This document shows, one piece after another, positions 2,219 to 60,813 of a stretch of DNA of 64,000 bases. Within the stretch, counting starts at the first letter, position 1. Each line of letters starts with the position of its first letter. The notes beneath the pieces are model-generated. The model made no database searches. It was given only the letters and a program-made list of their open reading frames with translations, and was not told the DNA's origin. The stretch lies in the NCBI GenBank assembly GCA_035248585.1, contig DATFHJ010000107.1:2523-66522 (forward strand), in the 5' to 3' direction. Origin of the DNA: Thermoanaerobaculia bacterium (GTDB lineage Bacteria > Acidobacteriota > Thermoanaerobaculia > Gp7-AA8). A program made the translations under genes and the position numbers.

Positions 2219-5200
2219 ATGCCCGTCCGCCGCCCTCTCTTCGCACTGTGCGTGGTCCTCGCCGCGCTTGCGATGCGCGCGGAGGAGTGGACACCGACGC
2301 GGGCGTTTCGGACGTTTCCGAAATCGAGCTGGCGGGGGTTGCCGCAGTCGTCGGCCGTGGCGCTGGCGCAGAGCACGGACGGGACGCTTTGGATCGGGAC
2401 ACTCGATGGCGTGGCGACGTTCGATGGAAAGACGATCACGCCGGTCGCCGATGTGAAGGGCGCTCCGTTGAGGGGATTGATCACGTCGATGGTCGCGCGC
2501 GCGCAGGGCGGCGTGTGGGTGGCGTCGCAGGCGGGCGTGCATCGGTACGACGGGCAGACGTGGAGTCTGCTCACAACGGAGCGCGGCGTGGCGTCGATCG
2601 CGGAGGCGCGCGACGGCACGTTATGGATGAGCGACGGCGACGGCGCGCTTTGGACGCTCGCATCGAATGACACATGGACGCGCCGCAACGAGATGACGGC
2701 GAAGGTCGTCGCGCTCAACGCGGCAAAGGACGGCGCGATCTGGGCGGCGACGGAAACCGGCGCGGCGCGCATCTTCAATCGAACGACGCAATTCGTCGAA
2801 GGCGCGCCTCTGCCGTCGCGGCCCGGCGCGATCCTCGCGGCGAGCGACGGGCGGGTGTGGGTGGCGACGCAGTCGTGCACCGTGCATTGGTCGAAGGGCG
2901 GCGCGGACGGCTGGCACCAGGCCGAGTTCGCGCCGTGGCCGCGCGGCTCGTTCCGCACGCTGGCCGAGGATCGGCGCGGAAGGATCTGGGCCGGATCGAC
3001 CGGCGCGCGCGTCGCGTTCGGCACCGCGTCCGGTCCGTGGACGGTGTGGAGTCCGGTGAACGGTCCGTTCGATCCCGGCGTGATGGCGATCCTCGGTGAT
3101 CGCGAAGGCAACGTCTGGTTCGGATTGAACGGCGTCGGTCCGGCACAGTGGGTCGGCGAAGGCTGGTCGCATCGCGTGGCCGCCGATCCGTGGAATCCCG
3201 CGCGCTCGCCGTTCGCGACGTTCTCCGCGTTCGGGCTCGCGCCCGCGTCCAACGGCGATCTGCTCGCCGGTCTCTTCATCAACGGCGCGCTGCGGCTGAA
3301 CCGCGACGGCACGCAGCGTTTGTTCGACCTGCAGGACGGGCTCACCGAGGACGTGCGCGCGCTCGCGGAGATCGAGCCGGGCGTCTACGCCGCCGCGGCG
3401 CGCTTCGGCATCTTCGAGTCGCGCGGCGGCAAGCCGTTCACGCAGGTGCTGAAGATCGGCAGCGGCTTCATGATGGGGTTGTTCCGCAGCCCCGCCGGCG
3501 TGTGGTACGGCGCGAGCGCGACCGAGGGCGTGTTCGTGCGCGAGAACGGCGCGTGGCGGCGCGAGGAGGCGATCAGCGGCAACCTCGAGAACCAGCACGT
3601 GCGGGCGATGATGTGGCGGCGGAACGGCGAGTTGTGGGTGGCCACGCTGCGCGGCATCAGCATCTTCCGCGACGGCGCGTTCGTCGATCGCGCCACATCG
3701 CGCAACGAGCCGGCGATCCCCGAGTCGGTCAACGCGCTGCTCGAAGTCTCGGACGACGAAGTGTGGGCCGGCGGTCCGGGCGGCATCGCCATTCGTCGCG
3801 GCGAGAAGTGGACGCGCGTGACGGACGGCCTTCCCGGACAGACGATCTACTCGCTCGCGCGCGCACGCGACGGCGCGATCTGGGCGGGCGGGTCGGAGGG
3901 CGTCGGCCGCTTCGCGAACGGACGCTGGACCACGTGGGACTCGCGCTCCGGCCTGCTGCAGGAAGAGACCAATCTCAATGGACTGCTCGTCGACGACGGC
4001 GGCATCGTCTACGTCGGCACGATGTCGGGTCTCGCGCGATTCGATCCGTCCGTCCAATCGCTGTCGCAGCCGAAGCTCGTGCTGCAGTGGCGCGACACGC
4101 CGGCGGTCAATGATCGCGCGCTGCATCTGCGCTGGTCGGCACCGTGGCTCAGCCCCACGCCCGTCGAGTATCGCGTGCGCGTGCCGCGGCTGCGCGAGGA
4201 GTGGTCGAAGCCTTCGCCCGACGATCGCCTCGACATCGAGAACCTCGGCAAGGGCCGCTGGCGCGTGGAAGTCGAGGCGCGCGTCGAAGGGACGAACGAA
4301 TGGACGCCGGCGCTCGTCGCCGACCTCGACGTCGCGCCGTACTGGTACGAGACCTGGCCCGCGCGGCTGGCGATGCTCGCGCTGCTCGCGCTGGTCGTCT
4401 ACGCCATCGTGCTGCTGCGATCGCGCGCGCTGCGCCGCCACGCGGCGATGCTCGAGGCCACGGTGCGCGAGCGCACCGCGGAACTGGCGGAGTCGGAGCA
4501 GCGGGCGCACGCGGCGAGCCGCGCGAAGAGCGCGTTCCTCGCGAATATGAGCCACGAGCTGCGGACGCCGCTGAACGGCGTGCTCGGGTTCGCGCAGCTC
4601 CTCGGCCGCCGAAAAAATCGCGACGCCGAGGACCGGCATGGATTGGATGTGATCATCCGCAGCGGCGAGCATCTCCTCGGATTGATCAACGACGTGCTGT
4701 CGCTTTCGAAAATCGAAGCGGGCAGCATGACGCTCGAGGAGACGCGCTTCGATCCGCGCGGACCGGTGCGCGACGTCGAGAAATTGCTCCGCTTCCGCGC
4801 CGAGGAAAAGCACATCCGCTTCACCGTCGACGTGGACGAGTCGCAGCTGCCGCCGATCGTCCTCGGCGACGAAGTGCGCCTGCGGCAGATTCTTTTGAAT
4901 CTCGCCGGCAACGCGGTGAAGTTCACGGAGACGGGCGGCGTGACGCTGCGCGCGCGATGGAGCCACGGCCGCGCGAGCTTCGACGTCGAAGACACGGGAC
5001 CCGGAATCGCGGCGGCGGAGCTGAGCAAGCTCTTCGAGCCGTTCGTGCAGAGCGAGACGGGGCGGCGATCGAAGGAAGGAACGGGACTCGGACTCGCGCT
5101 CTCGCGCAACATTGCGCGGCTGATGGGCGGCGACATCACGGCCGAGAGCACGCCGGGCCGGGGTTCGAAGTTTCATGTCGACATCAGCCTGCCGGCGGCG

Positions 5201-6043
5201 GAAGCGGAAGCCGTCGCGGTCGACACGCGCCGCGTCGCCGCGGTCACGACGCCGAAACGCATTCTCGTCGTCGACGACACGGCCGTGAATCGCGCGGTGC
5301 TCACGCAACTGCTCGCGCTCGTCGGATTCGAAGTGCGCGAGGCGGCGAACGGGGAAGAAGCGATCGAGCTGTGGCGCACGTGGAAGCCGCACCTCATCTG
5401 GATGGACTGGCGGATGAGCGGCATGGACGGCCTCGAAGCGACGCGCCGCATCCGCGCGGAAGAGAAAGGCGCGCGCACGCCGATCATCGCCCTTTCCGCG
5501 AGCGCGCTCGATCACGAGCGCGGCGAGATTCTCGCCGCCGGCTGCGACGAGTTCGTGGCGAAGCCGTTCCGGGAAGCGACGATCTTCGCCACGCTGCGAA
5601 AGTATCTTGGGGTGGAGTACGTGTACGAGGACAATGGAGCGGCGGGCTTTAGCCCGCCGGATACCGACGGCGGGCTAAAGCCCGCCGCTCCAGCCAACGT
5701 TCTCCTCGTCGATGACGACTGGATCTGCCGCGAAGTGGCCACGGAGATCCTGCGCGGGAGCGGCGTCGGCGTGACCGCCGCGTCGAGCGGCGGCGAGGCG
5801 CTGGAGCTGCTCGACCGCACGCGGTTCGACCTCGTGCTCATGGATCTGCAGATGCCGAAGATGAGCGGGGTGGAGGCGGCGCGGCGGATCAAGTCGAATC
5901 CCGCAAATGCCCGCGTGCCGATCATCGCCATGAGCGCCGACACGCTCGACGGGCTCGCGGAGACGGGCATGGACGACTACCTGCTCAAGCCGGTGGAGCC
6001 GGACGCGCTGCTGGCGAAAGTGCGGCGCTGGCTCGGCGCATAG
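2219..6043 (+). CDS. Hybrid sensor histidine kinase: periplasmic beta-propeller/Y_Y_Y-type sensor, TM, HisKA, HATPase_c and two receiver domains
   Basis: An N-terminal signal/TM is followed by repeated LWIGT/IWAGG/VWFG propeller blades and a TM (LAMLALLALVVYAIVLL). H-box is FLANMSHELRTPLN, G-boxes are DTGPGI and GTGLGLAL, and the two REC domains carry ILVVDD...WMDWRMSGMDG and LLVDDD...LMDLQMPKMSG. Confidence 0.9.
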   Translation: MPVRRPLFALCVVLAALAMRAEEWTPTRAFRTFPKSSWRGLPQSSAVALAQSTDGTLWIGTLDGVATFDGKTITPVADVKGAPLRGLITSMVARAQGGVWVASQAGVHRYDGQTWSLLTTERGVASIAEARDGTLWMSDGDGALWTLASNDTWTRRNEMTAKVVALNAAKDGAIWAATETGAARIFNRTTQFVEGAPLPSRPGAILAASDGRVWVATQSCTVHWSKGGADGWHQAEFAPWPRGSFRTLAEDRRGRIWAGSTGARVAFGTASGPWTVWSPVNGPFDPGVMAILGDREGNVWFGLNGVGPAQWVGEGWSHRVAADPWNPARSPFATFSAFGLAPASNGDLLAGLFINGALRLNRDGTQRLFDLQDGLTEDVRALAEIEPGVYAAAARFGIFESRGGKPFTQVLKIGSGFMMGLFRSPAGVWYGASATEGVFVRENGAWRREEAISGNLENQHVRAMMWRRNGELWVATLRGISIFRDGAFVDRATSRNEPAIPESVNALLEVSDDEVWAGGPGGIAIRRGEKWTRVTDGLPGQTIYSLARARDGAIWAGGSEGVGRFANGRWTTWDSRSGLLQEETNLNGLLVDDGGIVYVGTMSGLARFDPSVQSLSQPKLVLQWRDTPAVNDRALHLRWSAPWLSPTPVEYRVRVPRLREEWSKPSPDDRLDIENLGKGRWRVEVEARVEGTNEWTPALVADLDVAPYWYETWPARLAMLALLALVVYAIVLLRSRALRRHAAMLEATVRERTAELAESEQRAHAASRAKSAFLANMSHELRTPLNGVLGFAQLLGRRKNRDAEDRHGLDVIIRSGEHLLGLINDVLSLSKIEAGSMTLEETRFDPRGPVRDVEKLLRFRAEEKHIRFTVDVDESQLPPIVLGDEVRLRQILLNLAGNAVKFTETGGVTLRARWSHGRASFDVEDTGPGIAAAELSKLFEPFVQSETGRRSKEGTGLGLALSRNIARLMGGDITAESTPGRGSKFHVDISLPAAEAEAVAVDTRRVAAVTTPKRILVVDDTAVNRAVLTQLLALVGFEVREAANGEEAIELWRTWKPHLIWMDWRMSGMDGLEATRRIRAEEKGARTPIIALSASALDHERGEILAAGCDEFVAKPFREATIFATLRKYLGVEYVYEDNGAAGFSPPDTDGGLKPAAPANVLLVDDDWICREVATEILRGSGVGVTAASSGGEALELLDRTRFDLVLMDLQMPKMSGVEAARRIKSNPANARVPIIAMSADTLDGLAETGMDDYLLKPVEPDALLAKVRRWLGA
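5636..5692. repeat. Double-hairpin palindromic element, family A (GGAGC-GGCGGGCTTTAGCCCGCC-N10-GGCGGGCTAAAGCCCGCC-GCTCC), in frame inside the hybrid kinase CDS
   Basis: The same element recurs in intergenic DNA at 31926-31981 and 56681-56733. Here it encodes the 19-aa linker GAAGFSPPDTDGGLKPAAP between the two REC domains. Confidence 0.85.
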
Positions 6044-6115
6044 TGGAGGACAGGCACTCCTGCCTGTCCTGAGCGACGCGAAAAAAGTGGACAGGCAGGA
6101 GTGCCTGTCCTCCAC
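6043..6115. repeat. Double-hairpin palindromic element, family B, full copy (GTGGA-GGACAGGCActccTGCCTGTCC-spacer-GGACAGGCAggagTGCCTGTCC-TCCAC)
   Basis: It lies immediately 3' of the kinase stop codon (6041-6043). A second full copy is at 45571-45640, with half copies at 7899-7925 and 42859-42885. Confidence 0.85.
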
Positions 6116-6131
6116 TTGACAGCGAAATGCT

Positions 6132-7571
6132 TTGCCCCATAAAGTGCTTGCCGTGTTGCTGCGACGCGTCAAGCTCATCCTGCCGGCGCTCACCGAGGCC
6201 ACCAGCCCGTACTGGCGGCCCATCAAGTACTCGCTCTTTCCGCCGCTCGGGCTGGCCACGCTGGCGGCGTATCTCGATCCCGATCTCGAGATCTCGCTGC
6301 AGGACGAGCACGTGGAGCGGCTCGAGCTCGACGACGCGCCGGACCTCGTCATCATTCAGGTCTACATCACCAACGCCTATCGCGCGTACGAGATCGCCGA
6401 TCACTATCGCGCGCGCGGCGCGTACGTCGCCCTCGGCGGGCTGCACGTCACGTCGCTGCCCGACGAGGCCGCGCCGCACGCCGACACGATTTTTCTCGGG
6501 CCGGGCGAGCACACGTTCCCGCAGTTCCTGCGCGATCTGGCGAATGGCACGCCGCAGCGCCGCTACTTCTCGCCCGTGCGCACGCTCGAGGCGCTGCCGC
6601 CGATCCGGCGCGATCTCATCCAGCGGCACCGCTATCTCGTCCCGAACTCGATCGTCGTCTCGCGCGGCTGTCCGCATCACTGCACGTTCTGCTACAAGGA
6701 CGGCTTCTTCGCCGGCGGGCGCTCGTTCTATACGCAGCTCGTCGACGACGCGCTCGCGGAGATCGCGCGGCTGCCGGGCCGGCATCTCTACTTTCTCGAC
6801 GATCACCTCCTCGGCAATCCGCACTTTGCGCGCGCGCTCTTCCGCGGGATGCGGGGCATGAACCGCGTCTTCCAGGGCGCGGCGACCGTCGACTCGATCC
6901 TGCGCGACGACCTCGTCGAAGAAGCCGCGGCGGCGGGTCTCCGCAGCCTCTTCGTCGGCTTCGAGACGCTGTCCGATGACGGCCTGAAAGGCGCGCACAA
7001 GCGCCAGAACCTCGGCCGCGATTACCGGGCCGTCGTCCGCCGTCTCGACAGCCTCGGCATCATGATCAACGGCAGCTTCGTCTTCGGCCTGGACGGCGAC
7101 GACCGCGACGTCTTCGCGCGCACCGTCGACTGGGCCGTGCAGTCCGGCATCACCACCGCGACGTTTCACATCCTCACGCCGTATCCCGGCACCGCGCTGT
7201 TCACGGAGATGGAAGCGCAGAACCGCATCGCCACGCGCAACTGGGATCTCTACGACACGCGCAACGTCGTCTATCGCCCGACCGGACTCACGCCCGAGGA
7301 GCTGAAGCGCGGCTACGACTGGTCGTACGAGGCCTTCTATCGCTGGAGCGCGATCTTCCAGGGCGCGTCCGCGCACGAAACCGTCAAGCACCGGCTGAAG
7401 CACTTCTTCTACAGCGCCGGCTGGAAGAAGTTCGAGCGGGCGTGGGACTTTGTGATCCGCGTGAAGCAGCTCTCGCAGATGCGGCCGATGCTGGAGGCGA
7501 TTCTGTCGCCGGTCGCTGATCAACCGCAACCGAACATGCCCTTAAATGAGAGCCGATCACTTGCTAAATGA
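6132..7571 (+). CDS. B12-binding-domain radical SAM protein (class B rSAM); exact start uncertain (TTG 6132, or GTG 6144/6153)
   Basis: The N-terminal Rossmann-like region (PPLGLATLAAYL...VIIQVY...VALGGLHVTS) resembles a cobalamin-binding domain. It is followed by the CX3CX2C cluster SRGCPHHCTFCY. Confidence 0.85.
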   Translation: MPHKVLAVLLRRVKLILPALTEATSPYWRPIKYSLFPPLGLATLAAYLDPDLEISLQDEHVERLELDDAPDLVIIQVYITNAYRAYEIADHYRARGAYVALGGLHVTSLPDEAAPHADTIFLGPGEHTFPQFLRDLANGTPQRRYFSPVRTLEALPPIRRDLIQRHRYLVPNSIVVSRGCPHHCTFCYKDGFFAGGRSFYTQLVDDALAEIARLPGRHLYFLDDHLLGNPHFARALFRGMRGMNRVFQGAATVDSILRDDLVEEAAAAGLRSLFVGFETLSDDGLKGAHKRQNLGRDYRAVVRRLDSLGIMINGSFVFGLDGDDRDVFARTVDWAVQSGITTATFHILTPYPGTALFTEMEAQNRIATRNWDLYDTRNVVYRPTGLTPEELKRGYDWSYEAFYRWSAIFQGASAHETVKHRLKHFFYSAGWKKFERAWDFVIRVKQLSQMRPMLEAILSPVADQPQPNMPLNESRSLAK

Positions 7572-17162: not shown

Positions 17163-18281
17163 TCAGTTCCTTTCGGCGATGACGGCGCGTTGCTGGACGA
17201 GCCACGACAGCATCGCCGCGGCGCGCGGGCGGGGCATGGCGTGCGACCAGCGGTCGAGGATCGCATGCGCGGGTGTGCGGGCGGCGATCGTGGCGACGAG
17301 CGGCGCGAGCGGCGTGCCGCCGAGGTAGACGACGTCGTCGCCGGCGGCGGTGCGGATGGCCGGCTCGAGCTCGACGAAGTCGCCGCGGATCGCGGGGGCG
17401 ATCACTTGCGCGTGCTCGTTCGTGGAGATAAGCAGGTCATCTGCAATCGCGGCGGGCGTTTCTTCGAACACTTCGTTCGTCCAGCGCGCGTGCTGCGCGG
17501 AGACGCGTTGCACGTGGGAGGTGTAGAAGCGGATCGCGGCGCCGGTGTTTTCGGGGCGGCGGAGGATCGTGTGCACGGCGGTCGAGGCGGCGATGGCGCT
17601 GCCGATCGCCGCTTGCACGCCGGAGGATGTGATCGGATCGATGGCGAAGGCGGCTTCGCCGATCGAGGCGGAGTGCTCGTCGATCGGTGCGTCGCAGACG
17701 TACGGCGTGGCGTCGAAGGCGTGCGGCGGCGACGTTGGGACGCTGTTCGTAAATTGGGATAACGCGCCGGTGTAGACGGCGGTGTAGGTCCCGTCGGGGA
17801 GCGTGGCGCCCCAGAACCAGTCGTCGCCGCGCCGGAGGAAGAGCGGCAACTGGCGTTGCCGCACTCCAAAGCGCGCGTGCCAGGCGATGAGGCGCGGGGC
17901 GGTGAAGCGGCGCGGGCGGCGGGAGAGGTTGGCGCGGCCGGTGGCGTCGATGAAGAACTGATGGACTGCGGCGGCAGAGCCGCCGCTTTGGAAAGCGGCG
18001 GCTCTGCCGCCGCAGTCCAAAAAGAGAACTTCGACGCCGGCATCGCGCGCGGCATCGAGCAGCATCGAATCGAATTGAGCGCGGTCGACGACGAGCGATT
18101 GCGGAGCCTCGAGGCCGAGGTTCGCGAGATGCACGCGCACCCCGGGCGAGAGCGACTCGCCGACGTGCGGGCGCGGGAACGTGCGGCGCTCGACGAGGCG
18201 CACCGAATGTCCCAGCTTCGCGAGGCGGATCGCGGCGGCGCTGCCGGCGGGACCGCCGCCGGCGATGAGGACGTCGATCAC
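17163..18281 (-). CDS. FAD-dependent oxidoreductase/monooxygenase, in the operon position of LodB/GoxB/QhpG
   Basis: The GTG at 18281 overlaps the upstream stop (GTGA). Dinucleotide-binding motif VLIAGGGPAGSAAAIRLAKLGHSVRLVER and GESLSPG are present. The rest of track ORF 17163-19280 is out-of-frame overlap with the rSAM gene. Confidence 0.8.
   Translation of the reverse strand: MIDVLIAGGGPAGSAAAIRLAKLGHSVRLVERRTFPRPHVGESLSPGVRVHLANLGLEAPQSLVVDRAQFDSMLLDAARDAGVEVLFLDCGGRAAAFQSGGSAAAVHQFFIDATGRANLSRRPRRFTAPRLIAWHARFGVRQRQLPLFLRRGDDWFWGATLPDGTYTAVYTGALSQFTNSVPTSPPHAFDATPYVCDAPIDEHSASIGEAAFAIDPITSSGVQAAIGSAIAASTAVHTILRRPENTGAAIRFYTSHVQRVSAQHARWTNEVFEETPAAIADDLLISTNEHAQVIAPAIRGDFVELEPAIRTAAGDDVVYLGGTPLAPLVATIAARTPAHAILDRWSHAMPRPRAAAMLSWLVQQRAVIAERN
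17963..18018. repeat. Double-hairpin palindromic element, family C (GGACT-GCGGCGGCagaGCCGCCGC-TTTGGAAA-GCGGCGGCtctGCCGCCGC-AGTCC), in frame inside the flavoprotein CDS
   Basis: The arms are perfect 27-nt reverse complements. Within the gene it encodes ...DCGGRAAAFQSGGSAAAV... Confidence 0.85.
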
Positions 18282-23143: not shown

Positions 23144-23188
23144 GCTATGGAGGAGTGTCTTGCGGGAGGGATTCCCCTACCCGCCGTG

Positions 23189-23217
23189 GAAAAGCGGTGG
23201 CTATGCCACCGCAGTCC
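23189..23217. repeat. Family C palindromic element, half copy with compensatory stem change
   Basis: GAAAAGCGGTGGCTATGCCACCGCAGTCC compares with the right half of 17963-18018. The C-to-T change and its partner G-to-A change keep the hairpin intact. Confidence 0.6.
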
Positions 23218-23223
23218 AAAGCG

Positions 23224-31809: not shown

Positions 31810-31925
31810 GGTCGGAGGTTTTGCTAATTCCTTTGATTTGCTGGAGTTGATCGCGTTGCGCACAGCGGAATCCGGGCGGCAGTGTACGGCAAAGCGTACA
31901 GCATGTGTTGGTTTTACCTGACGGT

Positions 31926-31981
31926 GGAGCGGCGGGCTTTAGCCCGCCGAGGGGAAACGGCGGGCTGAAGCCCGCCGCTCC
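31926..31981. repeat. Family A double-hairpin palindromic element, intergenic copy
   Basis: GGAGCGGCGGGCTTTAGCCCGCC-GAGGGGAAAC-GGCGGGCTGAAGCCCGCCGCTCC. It differs from the other copies only in the loops and spacer. Confidence 0.85.
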
Positions 31982-31986
31982 ACAGT

Positions 31987-38537: not shown

Positions 38538-39274
38538 TCGACTATCGCGATGTCACCGTGCTCCGCGGCGGAAACGCGATCCTCGATCACATCACGCTCA
38601 CCATCGGCAAAGGCGAGCGCGTCGCGTTCCTCGGACGCAGCGGCGCCGGCAAGACGACGGCGCTGAAGGTGATCAACGGACTGATCGCGCCGTCGTCCGG
38701 GGACATTCTTGTTGACGGGAAACCACCCGGGCTGCCGGCGCTGCGCCGCCGCATCGGCTACGTGATGCAGCAGCCCGCGCTCTTTCCGCATCGCACGATC
38801 TTCGACAACGTCGCTACCGTCCCTCGCCTCCTCGGCTGGCCGGAAGAGCGGACGCGCGCGGAAGCGGAGCGGCTGCTCTCGCAACTCGAGCTTCCGAATT
38901 TCGGCTCGCGTTTTCCGCGCATGCTTTCGGGCGGACAGCAGCAGCGCGTCGCCATCGCCCGCGCGTTGATTGCCGCGCCGGAGATCGTGCTGTGCGACGA
39001 GCCGTTCTCCGCGCTCGATCCGCTGATCCGCGCCGAGCTGCAGACGCTGTTCGACGGAGTGGTGCGCGCCTCCGGCGCGCCCCCGCCCAAAGGCGCGCCG
39101 GAGGCGCGCACTACTCCGATGACGCTCGTCTTCGTCACGCATGATGTCCGCGAAGCGTTGCGCATGACGAAACGCATCATCCTGTTTGACGCCGGACGTG
39201 TTGTTGTCGACACGACGGCCGAGGAGTTCATGACGCACGAGCATCCGCTCGTGAGACGATTCGCCGAAGCATGA
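38534..39274 (+). CDS. ABC transporter ATP-binding protein (osmoprotectant/choline-glycine betaine type)
   Basis: Walker A GRSGAGKTT, signature LSGGQQQR, Walker B IVLCDEP and H-loop VFVTHD. The ATG at 38534 overlaps the upstream stop (ATGA). Confidence 0.9.
   Translation: MIDYRDVTVLRGGNAILDHITLTIGKGERVAFLGRSGAGKTTALKVINGLIAPSSGDILVDGKPPGLPALRRRIGYVMQQPALFPHRTIFDNVATVPRLLGWPEERTRAEAERLLSQLELPNFGSRFPRMLSGGQQQRVAIARALIAAPEIVLCDEPFSALDPLIRAELQTLFDGVVRASGAPPPKGAPEARTTPMTLVFVTHDVREALRMTKRIILFDAGRVVVDTTAEEFMTHEHPLVRRFAEA
39056..39117. repeat. Double-hairpin palindromic element, family D (GGAGTGGT-GCGCGCCtccGGCGCGC-spacer-GGCGCGCCggaGGCGCGC-ACTACTCC), in frame inside the ABC ATPase CDS
   Basis: The 26-nt arms are reverse complements with one mismatch. 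The element encodes ...VVRASGAPPPKGAPEARTT... just before the H-loop strand. Confidence 0.85.
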
Positions 39275-56649: not shown

Positions 56650-56678
56650 GACAGGGCTTCGGCCCTGTCTTTTGTTTT
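56650..56678 (+). terminator. Intrinsic terminator/attenuator hairpin upstream of thrS
   Basis: GACAGGGC-TTCG-GCCCTGTC is followed by TTTTGTTTT. Confidence 0.7.
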
Positions 56679-56680
56679 AT

Positions 56681-56733
56681 GGAGCGGCGGGCTTCAGCCC
56701 GCCGGATGCCGGCGGGCTAAAGCCCGCCGCTCC
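56681..56733. repeat. Family A double-hairpin palindromic element, intergenic copy directly upstream of thrS
   Basis: GGAGCGGCGGGCTTCAGCCCGCC-GGATGCC-GGCGGGCTAAAGCCCGCCGCTCC. Confidence 0.85.
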
Positions 56734-56756
56734 ACACAAGCGATGCGAGGTTTCTC

Positions 56757-58670
56757 ATGAACGTGCAACTGCCCGATGGCTCCGTAAAAGAAATCGCCGA
56801 GAACGCGACCGTCGCCGACGTCGCGGCGTCGATCGGCAAGCGGCTGGCGAAAGATGCGATTGCCGGCAAAGTGAACGGCAAGGTGGTCGACGTCTACGCG
56901 CCCGTTCCCGACGGCGCGAAGATCGAGATCGTCACTGCGAAGACCGAGGCCGGGCTCGACACCATCCGCCACTCCACCGCCCACCTCATGGCCATGGCGG
57001 TCCAGGAGCTGTTTCCCGGAACCCAGGTCACCATCGGCCCGGTGATCGAGAACGGCTTCTTCTACGACTTCGGCACCGATCGTCCGTTCACCGACGAAGA
57101 CCTGCGCCGCATCGAGGAGAAGATGGCTGAGATCGTGAAGCGCGACCTTCCAGTCCGGCGCGAGGAGTGGAGCCGCGACGAAGCGATCAAGCTCTTCGAC
57201 CAGCTCGGCGAAAAGTACAAGGTGGAGATCATCCAGGCCATCCCCGGCGATGAAAAGCTGTCCGTCTATCGCCAGGGCGAGTGGTTCGATCTCTGCCGCG
57301 GGCCGCACGTCCCCTCCACCGGCCGCCTCGGCGCGTTCAAGCTCCTCTCCGTCGCCGGCGCGTACTGGCGCGGCGACGAGCGCAATGCCATGCTGCAGCG
57401 CATCTACGGCACCGCCTGGGCCGACAAGGAGCAGCTCGACGCGCATCTCCAGCAGCTCGAGCAGGCCAGGGCCCGCGATCACCGCAAGCTCGGCAAGGAG
57501 CTGGGGCTGTTCATGTTCAGCCACTTCGCGCCGTCGATGCCGATCTTCCTGCCGCGCGGCACCGTGATCTACAACGAGCTGATCGACTTCGTGCGCGAGA
57601 AATACCGGCGCGATGGATACACCGAGGTCATCGCGCCGATCATCTTCGACACCGAGCTGTTCAAGATCTCGGGCCACTACGACAACTACCGCGACAACAT
57701 GTTCTTCTCGGAGATCGAGGAGCGCGAGTACGGCGTGAAGCCGATGAACTGCCCCGGCCACACCCAGGTCTTCGCGCTGGAGCGGCGCTCGTATCGCGAT
57801 CTGCCGATCCGCCTCGCGGAGTTCACCCGTCTGCACCGCTACGAGCGCTCGGGCGTGACTCACGGACTCGTGCGCGTGCGCTCGTTCGCGCAGGATGACG
57901 CGCATCTCTTCGTGACTCCGGAGCAGATCGAGGAGGAGATCGACCGCGAGCTGCGGCTGATCAGCGAGATCTACGACACCTTCGGATTCAGCGACGTGCG
58001 CATCGCACTGTCGACCCGTCCGGAAAAGCGCATCGGCAACGACGAGCTGTGGGACAACGCCGAGTCGGCGCTGGAGAACGCGCTGAAGAAGAACAATCTC
58101 GAGTACCACATCAATCCGGGCGAGGGCGCGTTCTACGGGCCGAAGCTCGAGTTCCAGGTGCACGATGCGATCGGCCGACCGTGGCAGCTCGGCACCGTGC
58201 AACTCGACTACACCCTCCCCGAGCGCTTCCAGCTCGAGTACATCGGCGCGGACAATCACCCGCACCGGCCGGTGATGATCCACCGCGCGATCCTCGGCTC
58301 GCTCGAGCGGTTCATCGGCATCATCATCGAGCACTTCGCCGGCGCGTTCCCGTTCTGGCTCGCGCCCGTGCAGATGCGCGTCCTCCCGCTGTCCGAGAAG
58401 TTCACCGACTACGCCGCACAGGTCGCGGAGAAGCTGAAAGCCGCGAACCTGCGCGTCGAAGTCGACCAGAGCAACGAGAAGCTCGGCGCGAAGATCCGTG
58501 ACGCGCAGCTGCAGAAGGTGCCGTTCATGCTCGTGGTGGGCGAGAAAGAAGCCGCCGCCGGAACCGTGACTCTCCGCAAACGCAGCGGCGGCGACCAGCC
58601 GACTCTGAGCGTCGAGGATGTGATCGCGATGGCGCAGGAGCTGGCGCGCACGCGCGCGCTAACGCTTTAG
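56757..58670 (+). CDS. thrS: Threonine--tRNA ligase
   Basis: TGS domain (MNVQLPDGSVKE...), editing-domain HSTAHLMA, class II motifs (FRGE-type RLHRYERSGVTHGLVRVRSF; GEGAFYGPK) and a C-terminal anticodon-binding domain. Confidence 0.95.
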   Translation: MNVQLPDGSVKEIAENATVADVAASIGKRLAKDAIAGKVNGKVVDVYAPVPDGAKIEIVTAKTEAGLDTIRHSTAHLMAMAVQELFPGTQVTIGPVIENGFFYDFGTDRPFTDEDLRRIEEKMAEIVKRDLPVRREEWSRDEAIKLFDQLGEKYKVEIIQAIPGDEKLSVYRQGEWFDLCRGPHVPSTGRLGAFKLLSVAGAYWRGDERNAMLQRIYGTAWADKEQLDAHLQQLEQARARDHRKLGKELGLFMFSHFAPSMPIFLPRGTVIYNELIDFVREKYRRDGYTEVIAPIIFDTELFKISGHYDNYRDNMFFSEIEEREYGVKPMNCPGHTQVFALERRSYRDLPIRLAEFTRLHRYERSGVTHGLVRVRSFAQDDAHLFVTPEQIEEEIDRELRLISEIYDTFGFSDVRIALSTRPEKRIGNDELWDNAESALENALKKNNLEYHINPGEGAFYGPKLEFQVHDAIGRPWQLGTVQLDYTLPERFQLEYIGADNHPHRPVMIHRAILGSLERFIGIIIEHFAGAFPFWLAPVQMRVLPLSEKFTDYAAQVAEKLKAANLRVEVDQSNEKLGAKIRDAQLQKVPFMLVVGEKEAAAGTVTLRKRSGGDQPTLSVEDVIAMAQELARTRALTL

Positions 58671-60665: not shown

Positions 60666-60713
60666 GGATCAGGAGCAGGTCTCAGGTATCAGGCGGCGAG
60701 AGCTTACGACTCA

Positions 60714-60755
60714 TAAGACCTAAGACCTAAGACCTAATACCTAAGACCTAGAGCC
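60714..60755. repeat. Six tandem copies of the heptamer TAAGACC (two degenerate) in the infC-rpmI spacer
   Basis: The units are TAAGACC x3, TAATACC, TAAGACC, TAGAGCC. The array is complementary (14/16) to GGTCTCAGGTATCAGG at 60678-60693. Confidence 0.8.
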
Positions 60756-60813
60756 GACCCGGGAATCCCTACCGGCACAACTTGGTTACGCACCAGGCTT
60801 TAAGAGGACAGCT

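What the first reader, a model, noticed from the sequence alone, without database searches (positions are those of the whole stretch)
5636..5692. 57-nt double-hairpin palindromic element translated in frame as the linker between two receiver domains of a hybrid kinase
The sequence is GGAGC GGCGGGC-TTTA-GCCCGCC GGATACCGAC GGCGGGC-TAAA-GCCCGCC GCTCC. It is the same element found in non-coding DNA at 31926-31981 and 56681-56733. Here it is exactly 19 codons (GAAGFSPPDTDGGLKPAAP) and sits between the end of REC1 (...LGVEYVYEDN) and the start of REC2 (ANVLLVDDD). This looks like a REP/MITE-like insertion that has been exapted, or at least tolerated, as an interdomain linker. It would also place a strong RNA/DNA secondary structure inside the mRNA.
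Basis: seen in the sequence. Interest (0 to 1): 0.6.

Follow-up and report, generated by a model that had tools for sequence, protein, structure and literature searches.

The report
Mobile palindrome translated as kinase linker
A copy of this bacterium's commonest small mobile palindromic repeat (a REPIN) sits in frame between the two receiver domains of a sensor kinase and is read as a floppy 19-residue linker; at least 51 other genes of the same genome carry the same repeat in frame, a situation already described in a few other bacteria.

Summary
Window 5636-5691 (58 nt with the flanking T/A, 5635-5692) is a perfect copy of a double-hairpin repeat. It lies in frame in a 1274-aa hybrid histidine kinase, exactly between REC1 and REC2.

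The repeat is a REPIN, an inverted doublet of REP hairpins with a GTGG head. This Thermoanaerobaculia MAG holds about 700 REP units (279 doublets, 156 singlets). A REP-associated tyrosine transposase gene is flanked by the same repeat.

The kinase copy is one of many. 52 of 279 doublets lie in frame in real genes, mostly between domains. 43 of the 52 use one phase, giving GAAGFSPP-xxx-GGLKPAAP. AlphaFold2 predicts two well-folded REC domains joined by a disordered REPIN peptide. REC2 is under strong purifying selection.

Distant orthologues have linkers of 0-35 residues. The five closest carry four different palindromes at this site (family A here, family B in the sister genome). Across the genome, 16 of 42 intragenic family-A sites carry another palindrome at the same place in the sister genome.

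Verdict: a tolerated in-frame REPIN insertion. It is a new member of a known kind (intragenic GTAG-type REPs; works like Rickettsia RPEs). The phase bias and the sharing of sites between families are unexplained.

The parts
2219..6043 (+). Hybrid histidine kinase gene, 1274 aa: Reg_prop beta-propeller sensor, TM, HisKA, HATPase_c, REC1, linker, REC2
   Evidence: ORF; Pfam; more than 60 full-length orthologues with the same architecture
5261..5596 (+). REC1 (residues 1015-1126)
   Evidence: Pfam Response_reg best stretch; AF2 pLDDT about 90-98
5635..5692 (+). Family-A REPIN copy, read in frame as (N)GAAGFSPPDTDGGLKPAAP
   Evidence: perfect match to the genome consensus in both arms; unique 8-nt centre GATACCGA
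5636..5659 (+). Left REP unit: GGAGC + hairpin GGCGGGC-TTTA-GCCCGCC + G
5660..5667 (+). Copy-specific central spacer GATACCGA (differs in every copy of the family)
   Evidence: list of 279 doublets
5668..5691 (+). Right REP unit, the inverted copy: C + GGCGGGC-TAAA-GCCCGCC + GCTCC
5696..6028 (+). REC2 (about residues 1160-1270), conserved DDD...D...K
   Evidence: Alignment; AF2; dN/dS 0.03-0.07
6043..6115 (.). Family-B REPIN (GTGGAG-GACAGGCA-CTCC-TGCCTGTC...CTCCAC) overlapping the last base of the kinase stop codon TAG (6041-6043)
   Evidence: 182 units in G000; z = -13.5
31924..31983 (.). Intergenic family-A REPIN, full 60-nt form GTGGAGC..GCTCCAC
   Evidence: G047 has a different 123-nt palindrome at this place
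56680..56735 (.). Intergenic family-A REPIN (7-nt centre) between a terminator-like hairpin and the thrS start

Best explanation
The 56-58 nt stretch is a REPIN: two inverted REP hairpins (head GTGGAGC, stem GGCGGGC/GCCCGCC) around a copy-specific 8-10 nt centre. It belongs to the dominant repeat family of this Thermoanaerobaculia genome. The family is of the GTAG/RAYT type and is presumably spread as single-stranded DNA by the REP-associated tyrosine transposase encoded on contig C268 (inferred). One copy landed in the few codons that join REC1 and REC2 of a hybrid histidine kinase. This happened after the split from the closest known relatives, at a site that already held another palindrome in the common ancestor (inferred by parsimony). 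The copy survives for three reasons. Its length keeps the frame. The phase used has no stop codon. It encodes a Gly/Ala/Pro/Ser-rich peptide, GAAGFSPP-DTD-GGLKPAAP, that acts as a disordered tether between two independently folding domains. The kinase therefore stays functional, and the element is a tolerated passenger that now is the linker. It is not a dedicated regulatory device. The same filter (frame, phase, permissive linker or loop) explains at least 51 other in-frame copies in this genome.
For: Shown:
- Repeat family: 714 hairpin units, 279 doublets and 156 singlets in 6.3 Mb; 698 units by a stricter pattern with 0 in the reversed control.
- RAYT: the ORF at L014 1375-1833(-) hits NCBIfam NF047646 'REP-associated tyrosine transposase' at 104 bits against a cut-off of 80. 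A family-A singlet lies at one end of it and a doublet at the other.
- In-frame position between two REC domains.
- The linker is hypervariable, 0-35 aa, in 42 orthologues. The sister genome G047 and metagenome orthologues at 91-93% identity lack family A here.
- Family A has about 700 units in G000 and 8 in G047. Both arms of the kinase copy match the consensus perfectly, although dS between the genomes is about 0.3. The copy is therefore young.
- dN/dS is 0.11-0.14 upstream and 0.03-0.07 in REC2.
- AF2: both REC domains have pLDDT above 90. The REPIN peptide has pLDDT below 50 and no secondary structure.
- 52 of 279 doublets are in frame in ORFs with coding periodicity on both flanks.
- All 10 hosts tested have Pfam domains on both sides of or around the insert. 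Most inserts lie between domains: E2 acyltransferase, CheB, M16 peptidase, UvrA, AroDE.
- At 23 of 42 orthologous sites G047 has little or nothing opposite the element, which shows insertion.
- Phase bias is 43:4:5. In the 56-nt class it is 30:1 where stop codons alone would give 2:1, binomial P about 6e-5.
- The A-rich spacer strand is the coding strand in 37 copies against 12, P = 5e-4.
Against: - The junctions rest on one MAG assembly with 501 contigs and 5.9% contamination.
- The net length change cannot be reconstructed, because every close orthologue has something else at the site and no clean empty site exists for this gene.
- The copy lacks the outermost G...C of the consensus (AATGGAGC...GCTCCAGC), so its exact borders are ambiguous.
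- Transposition by the RAYT is inferred from association only.
- Translation through a -62 kcal/mol hairpin is assumed, not shown.
- The phase and orientation bias could reflect an insertion bias rather than selection on the peptide.
Confidence: 0.85

Rival explanations
1. Exaptation. The palindrome was kept because it does something: as an RNA or DNA hairpin inside the gene (translational pause between domains, RNase site yielding a kinase without REC2, gyrase or nucleoid-protein site), or as a linker of selected length and composition.
For: The site is occupied by a palindrome in all five closest orthologues, with z from -5.5 to -11.3. The hairpin is very stable. Phase and spacer-orientation biases show that selection or bias acts on the coding copies.
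Against: The occupants are four unrelated sequences, so no sequence-specific function is conserved. More distant orthologues work with 0-5 residue or non-palindromic linkers. The same element sits in at least 51 unrelated genes. There is no T tract and no Rfam family above threshold.
Confidence: 0.1
2. Assembly artefact. The contig was mis-joined, or the repeat was collapsed into the gene at a dispersed repeat, so REC1 and REC2 are not truly joined by this element.
For: The genome is a fragmented MAG with 501 contigs. 22 contig ends lie within 100 nt of a family-A hairpin, so the repeat does break this assembly. Reads could not be checked.
Against: REC1-linker-REC2 is collinear in more than 60 orthologues. 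The sister genome keeps the same gene order, with the radical-SAM gene downstream. The copy has its own centre GATACCGA and keeps the frame. Flanks align with G047 at about 90% right up to the element.
Confidence: 0.03
3. Not an insertion. The linker is native sequence that only resembles the repeat, or the repeat family arose from this gene.
For: A linker of about 20 residues exists in many orthologues.
Against: Both 23-nt arms are identical to a consensus shared by about 700 units. Orthologous linkers share no sequence with it. The family is present in 18 other genomes of the genus, most of which lack this kinase.
Confidence: 0.01

Closest known systems
GTAG-type REPs / REPINs with RAYT transposases, including intragenic copies (Bertels & Rainey 2011, PMC3116915; Nunvar 2013, PMC3686654; Di Nocera 2013, PMC3733652)
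   Same: A short GC-rich hairpin has a conserved 5' head. The head is GTGG here and GTAG in the G041 variant. GTGG heads are reported for Opitutus terrae GTAG-20, and Pseudomonas REPs begin GTAGGAGC. Most units are inverted doublets with variable spacers. The RAYT gene is flanked by the repeat. Several families coexist, and copy number differs strongly between related genomes. Di Nocera et al. already list REP dimers inside genes that encode 20-30 aa. Many of those are in uvrA, dnaE2 and helicase genes, and they note 'flexible linkers or loops'. UvrA, a DnaE2-like polymerase and an Lhr-like helicase are also hit here.
   Different: REPINs are described as residing 'almost exclusively in extragenic space' (bioRxiv 10.1101/2021.07.10.451892). 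Here about 19% of doublets are intragenic by strict criteria. The host phylum (Acidobacteriota, Thermoanaerobaculia) is not covered for REP families in those surveys. The strong single-phase preference was not found in the passages of these papers that I read. Neither was the frequent occupation of the same intragenic site by different families in a sister genome, apart from one remark on Xanthomonas recB.
Rickettsia palindromic elements (RPE; Ogata et al. 2000, as summarised in PMC10969869 and PMC3733652)
   Same: Palindromic selfish repeats are inserted in frame in many unrelated, functional genes. They are translated as extra peptide segments placed where the fold tolerates them.
   Different: RPE-1 is about 100-150 bp, occurs in an obligate intracellular alphaproteobacterium, and has no known transposase. 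There is no sequence similarity. The resemblance is functional, not membership.
Bacterial MITEs that make in-frame fusions (ERIC, Nezha, Correia; review PMC10969869)
   Same: Small non-autonomous repeats with inverted ends that are occasionally found inside ORFs.
   Different: MITEs derive from IS elements, have 15-30 bp TIRs plus target-site duplications, and measure 70-300 bp. This element is a REP doublet with no detectable duplication and a Y1 (HUH) transposase partner.

Membership tests
REP / REPIN (GTAG superfamily) | Short (20-40 nt) imperfect palindrome with a conserved 5' GTAG-like tetranucleotide | tested here: met
   The unit is GTGG-AGC-GGCGGGC-TTYA-GCCCGCC. The head is GTGG in G000 and GTAG in G041. 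GTGG variants are accepted in PMC3733652.
REP / REPIN (GTAG superfamily) | High copy number, dispersed through the genome | tested here: met
   714 hairpins on most contigs; 698 by a stricter pattern against 0 in the reversed control.
REP / REPIN (GTAG superfamily) | Predominantly inverted doublets that can fold into one long hairpin (the REPIN) | tested here: met
   279 doublets against 156 singlets. The kinase copy folds as a 25-bp stem at -61.7 kcal/mol.
REP / REPIN (GTAG superfamily) | Cognate RAYT (Y1/HUH transposase) gene flanked by the same REP | tested here: met
   NF047646 at 104.4 bits, above the cut-off of 80. A family-A singlet lies at L014 1357-1385 and a doublet at 1873-1951, flanking the gene at 1375-1833.
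REP / REPIN (GTAG superfamily) | Extragenic location | tested here: not met
   52 of 279 doublets and 28 of 156 singlets are in frame in coding ORFs. Doublets are still 2.7-fold depleted from coding DNA relative to random placement, 18.6% against 50.4% under the same criteria. Intragenic REPs are a documented exception (PMC3733652).
REP / REPIN (GTAG superfamily) | Mobilised by the RAYT (cleavage and strand transfer on REP ssDNA) | not testable with these tools
   Only association and presence/absence polymorphism between G000 and G047 are shown.
Rickettsia palindromic elements | Sequence membership in RPE-1 to RPE-10, Rickettsia lineage | tested here: not met
   The host is Thermoanaerobaculia by the names of homologues. 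The length (56-60 nt) and sequence differ from what the papers describe for RPEs; no sequence comparison with RPEs was run. Only the behaviour (in-frame, tolerated) is shared.
MITE | IS-derived terminal inverted repeats with target-site duplication | tested here: inconclusive
   No direct repeat flanks the copies listed. The comparison with G047 shows variable short replacements rather than clean duplications. No parent IS was sought.
Intrinsic terminator / known structured RNA | Hairpin followed by a U tract, or a match to an Rfam family | tested here: not met
   No terminator-like site at 5636-5692. Only sub-threshold generic hairpin (miRNA precursor) hits were found.

The most novel reading that the evidence does not exclude
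Intragenic (and intergenic) REPIN sites in this genus behave as heritable landing pads. Once a palindrome occupies a permissive linker or loop, later REPIN families replace it in situ. The site then stays occupied while its occupant changes within dS of about 0.3. The kinase linker shows this: family A here, family B in G047, a GTCCTATAGGAC palindrome in L015, and a GCCGCCG palindrome in L016/L017. Family A would also be adapted to life inside genes: 60 nt modal length, stop-free in the favoured phase, and a Gly/Ala/Pro-rich product. On this reading REPINs are a regular source of interdomain linkers that decay into ordinary-looking linker sequence.
Probability: 0.35. Interest if true: 0.7.

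Novelty: new member of a known kind. Interest (0 to 1): 0.5.

Why it matters
REPINs are usually treated as strictly extragenic. Here one family is translated in at least 52 genes of a soil Acidobacteriota genome, including a leucyl-tRNA-synthetase-like gene (twice), UvrA, the E2 acyltransferase, CheB and several sensor kinases. That gives a natural map of positions where about 20 extra flexible residues are tolerated, and a plausible route by which hypervariable interdomain linkers arise. Annotators should expect the recurring peptide 'GAAGFSPP...GGLKPAAP' in proteins of this clade and should not read it as a domain or motif. The shared-site pattern between sister genomes, if it reflects in-situ replacement, would bear on how RAYT/REPIN systems choose targets, which is an open question.

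Tried and rejected

2. First relatives search. The best hits in G001 and G006 (57% and 49%) turned out to be paralogues with another C-terminus: HK-REC1 plus a helical tail, followed by a separate REC-Ser/Thr kinase gene. I dropped them in favour of true orthologues from the protein database and G047.

3. Excision scars. L015 holds 'GGAGC CA GCTCC' and G047 holds 'CCGGAGCTCCGG' at another site, which looks like the outer stems joined. Genome-wide, GGAGC-N0-6-GCTCC is no more frequent than permuted control palindromes in G000, so the scar idea is not supported.

4. Terminator or known RNA. No T tract and no Rfam family above threshold.

5. Target site. Comparison with 23 near-empty G047 sites gave no clean target motif or duplication, because these loops differ by small indels anyway.

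6. Second RAYT-like gene (L013 1201-1767). It scores 72.9 bits, below the cut-off, and has no family-A repeat beside it. It was not assigned to a family.

7. The cross-genome search scored only 40 candidate regions, so 10 of the 52 sites gave no hit and remain uncompared.

Full report
**1. The observation**

Window 5636-5691 reads GGAGC GGCGGGC-TTTA-GCCCGCC G-GATACCGA-C GGCGGGC-TAAA-GCCCGCC GCTCC.
- GGAGC..GCTCC is 56 nt.
- The hairpin motif occurs six times in the window, as three doublets at 5641/5669, 31931/31959 and 56686/56711. Chance would give 0.11, and no shuffle of 100 reaches six.
- As RNA the stretch folds into one 25-bp stem at -61.7 kcal/mol, z = -10.7.
- It lies in ORF 2219-6043(+), 1274 aa. 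The ORF has Reg_prop repeats, HisKA, HATPase_c and two Response_reg domains.
- It is read as GAAGFSPPDTDGGLKPAAP between the end of REC1 and the start of REC2.

**2. What the repeat is**

The window lies in a 6.3-Mb, 501-contig, 65% GC assembly. Names of close homologues place it in Thermoanaerobaculia, Acidobacteriota.
- The genome holds 714 hairpin units: 279 inverted doublets and 156 singlets.
- The consensus is GTGGAGC-GGCGGGC-TTYA-GCCCGCC-G-N8-10-C-GGCGGGC-TRAA-GCCCGCC-GCTCCAC. The arms are almost invariant. The centre differs in every copy.
- This is the anatomy of a REPIN, a doublet of REP sequences.
- A 153-aa ORF on contig C268 matches NCBIfam 'REP-associated tyrosine transposase' at 104 bits (cut-off 80). 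A family-A singlet lies at its 3' end and a doublet lies 40 nt upstream.
- Within the genus the family is patchy: about 700 units here, 60-210 in eight other genomes, 8 in the closest genome G047, and none in 16 of 35 genomes.
- One genome has the head GTAGC instead of GTGGAGC. This links the family to the GTAG superfamily, in which GTGG heads are known (PMC3733652).
- G047 mainly has a variant with a 5-nt loop (87 units; G000 has 38). Both genomes have about 185 units of family B (GTGGAG-GACAGRCA...).

**3. Is it an insertion? The orthologues**

More than 60 full-length orthologues share the HK-REC1-REC2 architecture.
- In an alignment of 42 orthologues, the segment between ...GV.Y.Y and VLLVDDD ranges from 0 to about 35 residues with no conserved sequence. 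Several have almost no linker, for example YAYESAT-RNVLVVDDD.
- Three proteins that share one 90%-identity cluster differ here. The window has family A.
- The JGI metagenome contig L015 has a GTCCTATAGGAC-based palindrome followed by GGAGC-CA-GCTCC.
- G047 (P0122 / L019 / L021) has a 66-nt family-B-type REPIN read as VEDRQSCLSEEKEGQTGLSVLH.
- Two orthologues at 78% identity (L016, L017) have yet another palindrome, GTGTGGAGCCGCCG...CGGCGGCTCCACAC.
- Folding the linker DNA of ten orthologues gives z = -5.5 to -11.3 for these five, weak signals in two, and none (z about 0) in three.
The 57 nt are family-A sequence and are not inherited linker.
- Both arms are identical to the consensus, while synonymous divergence from G047 and L015 is about 0.3-0.5. 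Family A has only 8 units in G047. The copy is therefore most likely younger than the split.
- All five close relatives carry a palindrome at the same few codons. Parsimony therefore suggests the site was already occupied and the occupant changed.

**4. Does the gene still work?**
- dN/dS against G047 and L015 is 0.11-0.14 for the part before the element and 0.03-0.07 for REC2 after it. REC2 is translated and constrained in lineages that carry such elements.
- AlphaFold2 on REC1-linker-REC2, with 43 orthologues as alignment, gives mean pLDDT 90. Both REC domains score above 90.
- Residues 133-146 of the fragment, which lie inside the REPIN peptide (133-151), score below 50 and have no secondary structure.
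- There is no T tract after the hairpin, no terminator-like call, and no Rfam family above threshold.

**5. It is one of many**

I asked for three things: an open frame through a doublet, at least 40 open codons on each side, and coding periodicity (high GC3, low GC2) on both flanks in the same frame.
- 52 of 279 doublets (18.6%) and 28 of 156 singlets pass. Random 56-nt placements pass at 50.4%. The family is thus about 2.7-fold depleted from genes but far from excluded, and 52 is a lower bound.
- Ten hosts were run against Pfam, and all are real genes.
- In most of them the insert lies between domains: E3-binding | catalytic domain of an E2 acyltransferase, REC | methylesterase of CheB, the two halves of an M16 peptidase, the two ABC halves of UvrA, and Shikimate_dh_N | NAD domain. 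In the others it lies in a loop (YdjC, GGDEF).
- A leucyl-tRNA-synthetase-like ORF carries two copies.
- 43 of the 52 copies use one phase, giving GAAGFSPP-x3-GGLKPAAP. In the 56-nt class the ratio of the two stop-free phases is 30:1, where stop codons alone predict 2:1 (P about 6e-5).
- Codons just before the insert are mostly NGT or NNT, and those just after mostly begin with C. The full unit is therefore GTGGAGC...GCTCCAC, modally 60 nt or 20 codons, which is frame-neutral.
- The A-rich strand of the centre is the coding strand in 37 copies against 12 (P = 5e-4). This gives more hydrophilic tripeptides in 26 cases against 11.
- These biases point to selection on the encoded peptide. Alternatively they reflect an insertion bias tied to transcription or replication direction. 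I cannot separate the two.

**6. Comparison with the sister genome**

Flanks of the 52 sites were searched in G047. 42 were found, and the regions were fetched and aligned.
- At 23 sites G047 has nothing or a short unrelated stretch (0 to about 40 nt). This shows insertion in G000, often with small replacement of loop codons.
- At 16 sites G047 has a clear palindrome of its own (z below -4): three of the A' variant, three of family B, four of family D (GCGCGCC), and six others.
- Three sites are unclear.
- A whole-window alignment with G047 at about 90% identity shows the same pattern between genes. Window 6040-6127 (family B), 23186-23223 and 31926-31983 (family A) each face a different palindrome in G047. 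Other elements are private to one genome.
- Such co-occupation is far more than independent scatter of a few hundred elements would give. It means either very narrow hot spots or replacement in place.
- A search for excision scars (joined outer stems) found no excess.

**7. What is known**
- Intragenic GTAG- and CGTC-type REPs, often dimers encoding 20-30 residues, were catalogued by Di Nocera et al. 2013. They were most frequent in Opitutus terrae and Rickettsia conorii, often in uvrA, dnaE2 and helicase genes.
- Those authors suggest the inserts sit in flexible linkers or loops. They also note that different REPs lie at about the same site in recB of two Xanthomonas species (PMC3733652).
- Rickettsia palindromic elements are the classic in-frame case (PMC10969869).
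- REPIN papers describe these elements as almost exclusively extragenic.
- Nunvar et al. describe switches of REP class at orthologous RAYT genes (PMC3686654).
- The present case is thus a new member of a known kind, in a phylum and at a scale not covered there. The phase bias and the site sharing are not explained by what I read.

**8. Verdict**

- Exaptation for a specific function is not supported.
- Misassembly is unlikely, because gene order and architecture are conserved in relatives.

Noticed in passing
window 6043-6115: A family-B REPIN (GTGGAG-GACAGGCA-CTCC-TGCCTGTC ... CTCCAC) overlaps the last base of the kinase stop codon TAG (6041-6043). The sister genome G047 has a different 113-nt palindrome (GTCATCCTGAG...CTCAGGATGAC) in the same short spacer before the radical-SAM gene.
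   Followed up: partly
window 39056-39117: A family-D palindrome (GCGCGCC-type) lies in frame in an ABC ATPase ORF and is read as VVRASGAPPPKGAPEARTTP just before ...LVFVTHD. It is absent from G047. G047 has its own 60-nt insert about 190 nt further on in the same gene.
   Followed up: partly
window 17963-18018 (minus strand): A perfect 27+27-nt family-C palindrome lies in frame in a 751-aa ORF (CGGRAAAFQSGGSAAAV). G047 is 33 nt shorter here.
   Followed up: partly
window 56651-56757: The family-A REPIN at 56681-56733 lies between a terminator-like hairpin with a T tract (56651-56679) and the thrS ATG. A mobile repeat there should be taken into account when that model is judged.
   Followed up: no
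G000 contig C424:6383-6438 and 7340-7395: A leucyl-tRNA-synthetase-like ORF carries two family-A REPINs in frame. At the second site G047 has its own A' variant, and at the first it has none.
   Followed up: partly
L015 4270-4350 (metagenome orthologue of the kinase): Next to its own palindrome, the linker holds GGAGC-CA-GCTCC, the outer stems of family A with the interior missing. It may be a remnant or a scar. No genome-wide excess of such joints was found in G000.
   Followed up: partly
window 60669-60777: A 109-nt stretch with tandem AAGACCT/TAAGACC heptamer-like units is absent from G047. It resembles the GACCTATAGGAC-type repeat seen in L015.
   Followed up: no
G000 contig C288 (L013 1201-1767): A second RAYT-like gene scores 72.9 bits, below the NF047646 cut-off. 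No family-A repeat lies beside it, and its partner repeat family was not identified.
   Followed up: partly
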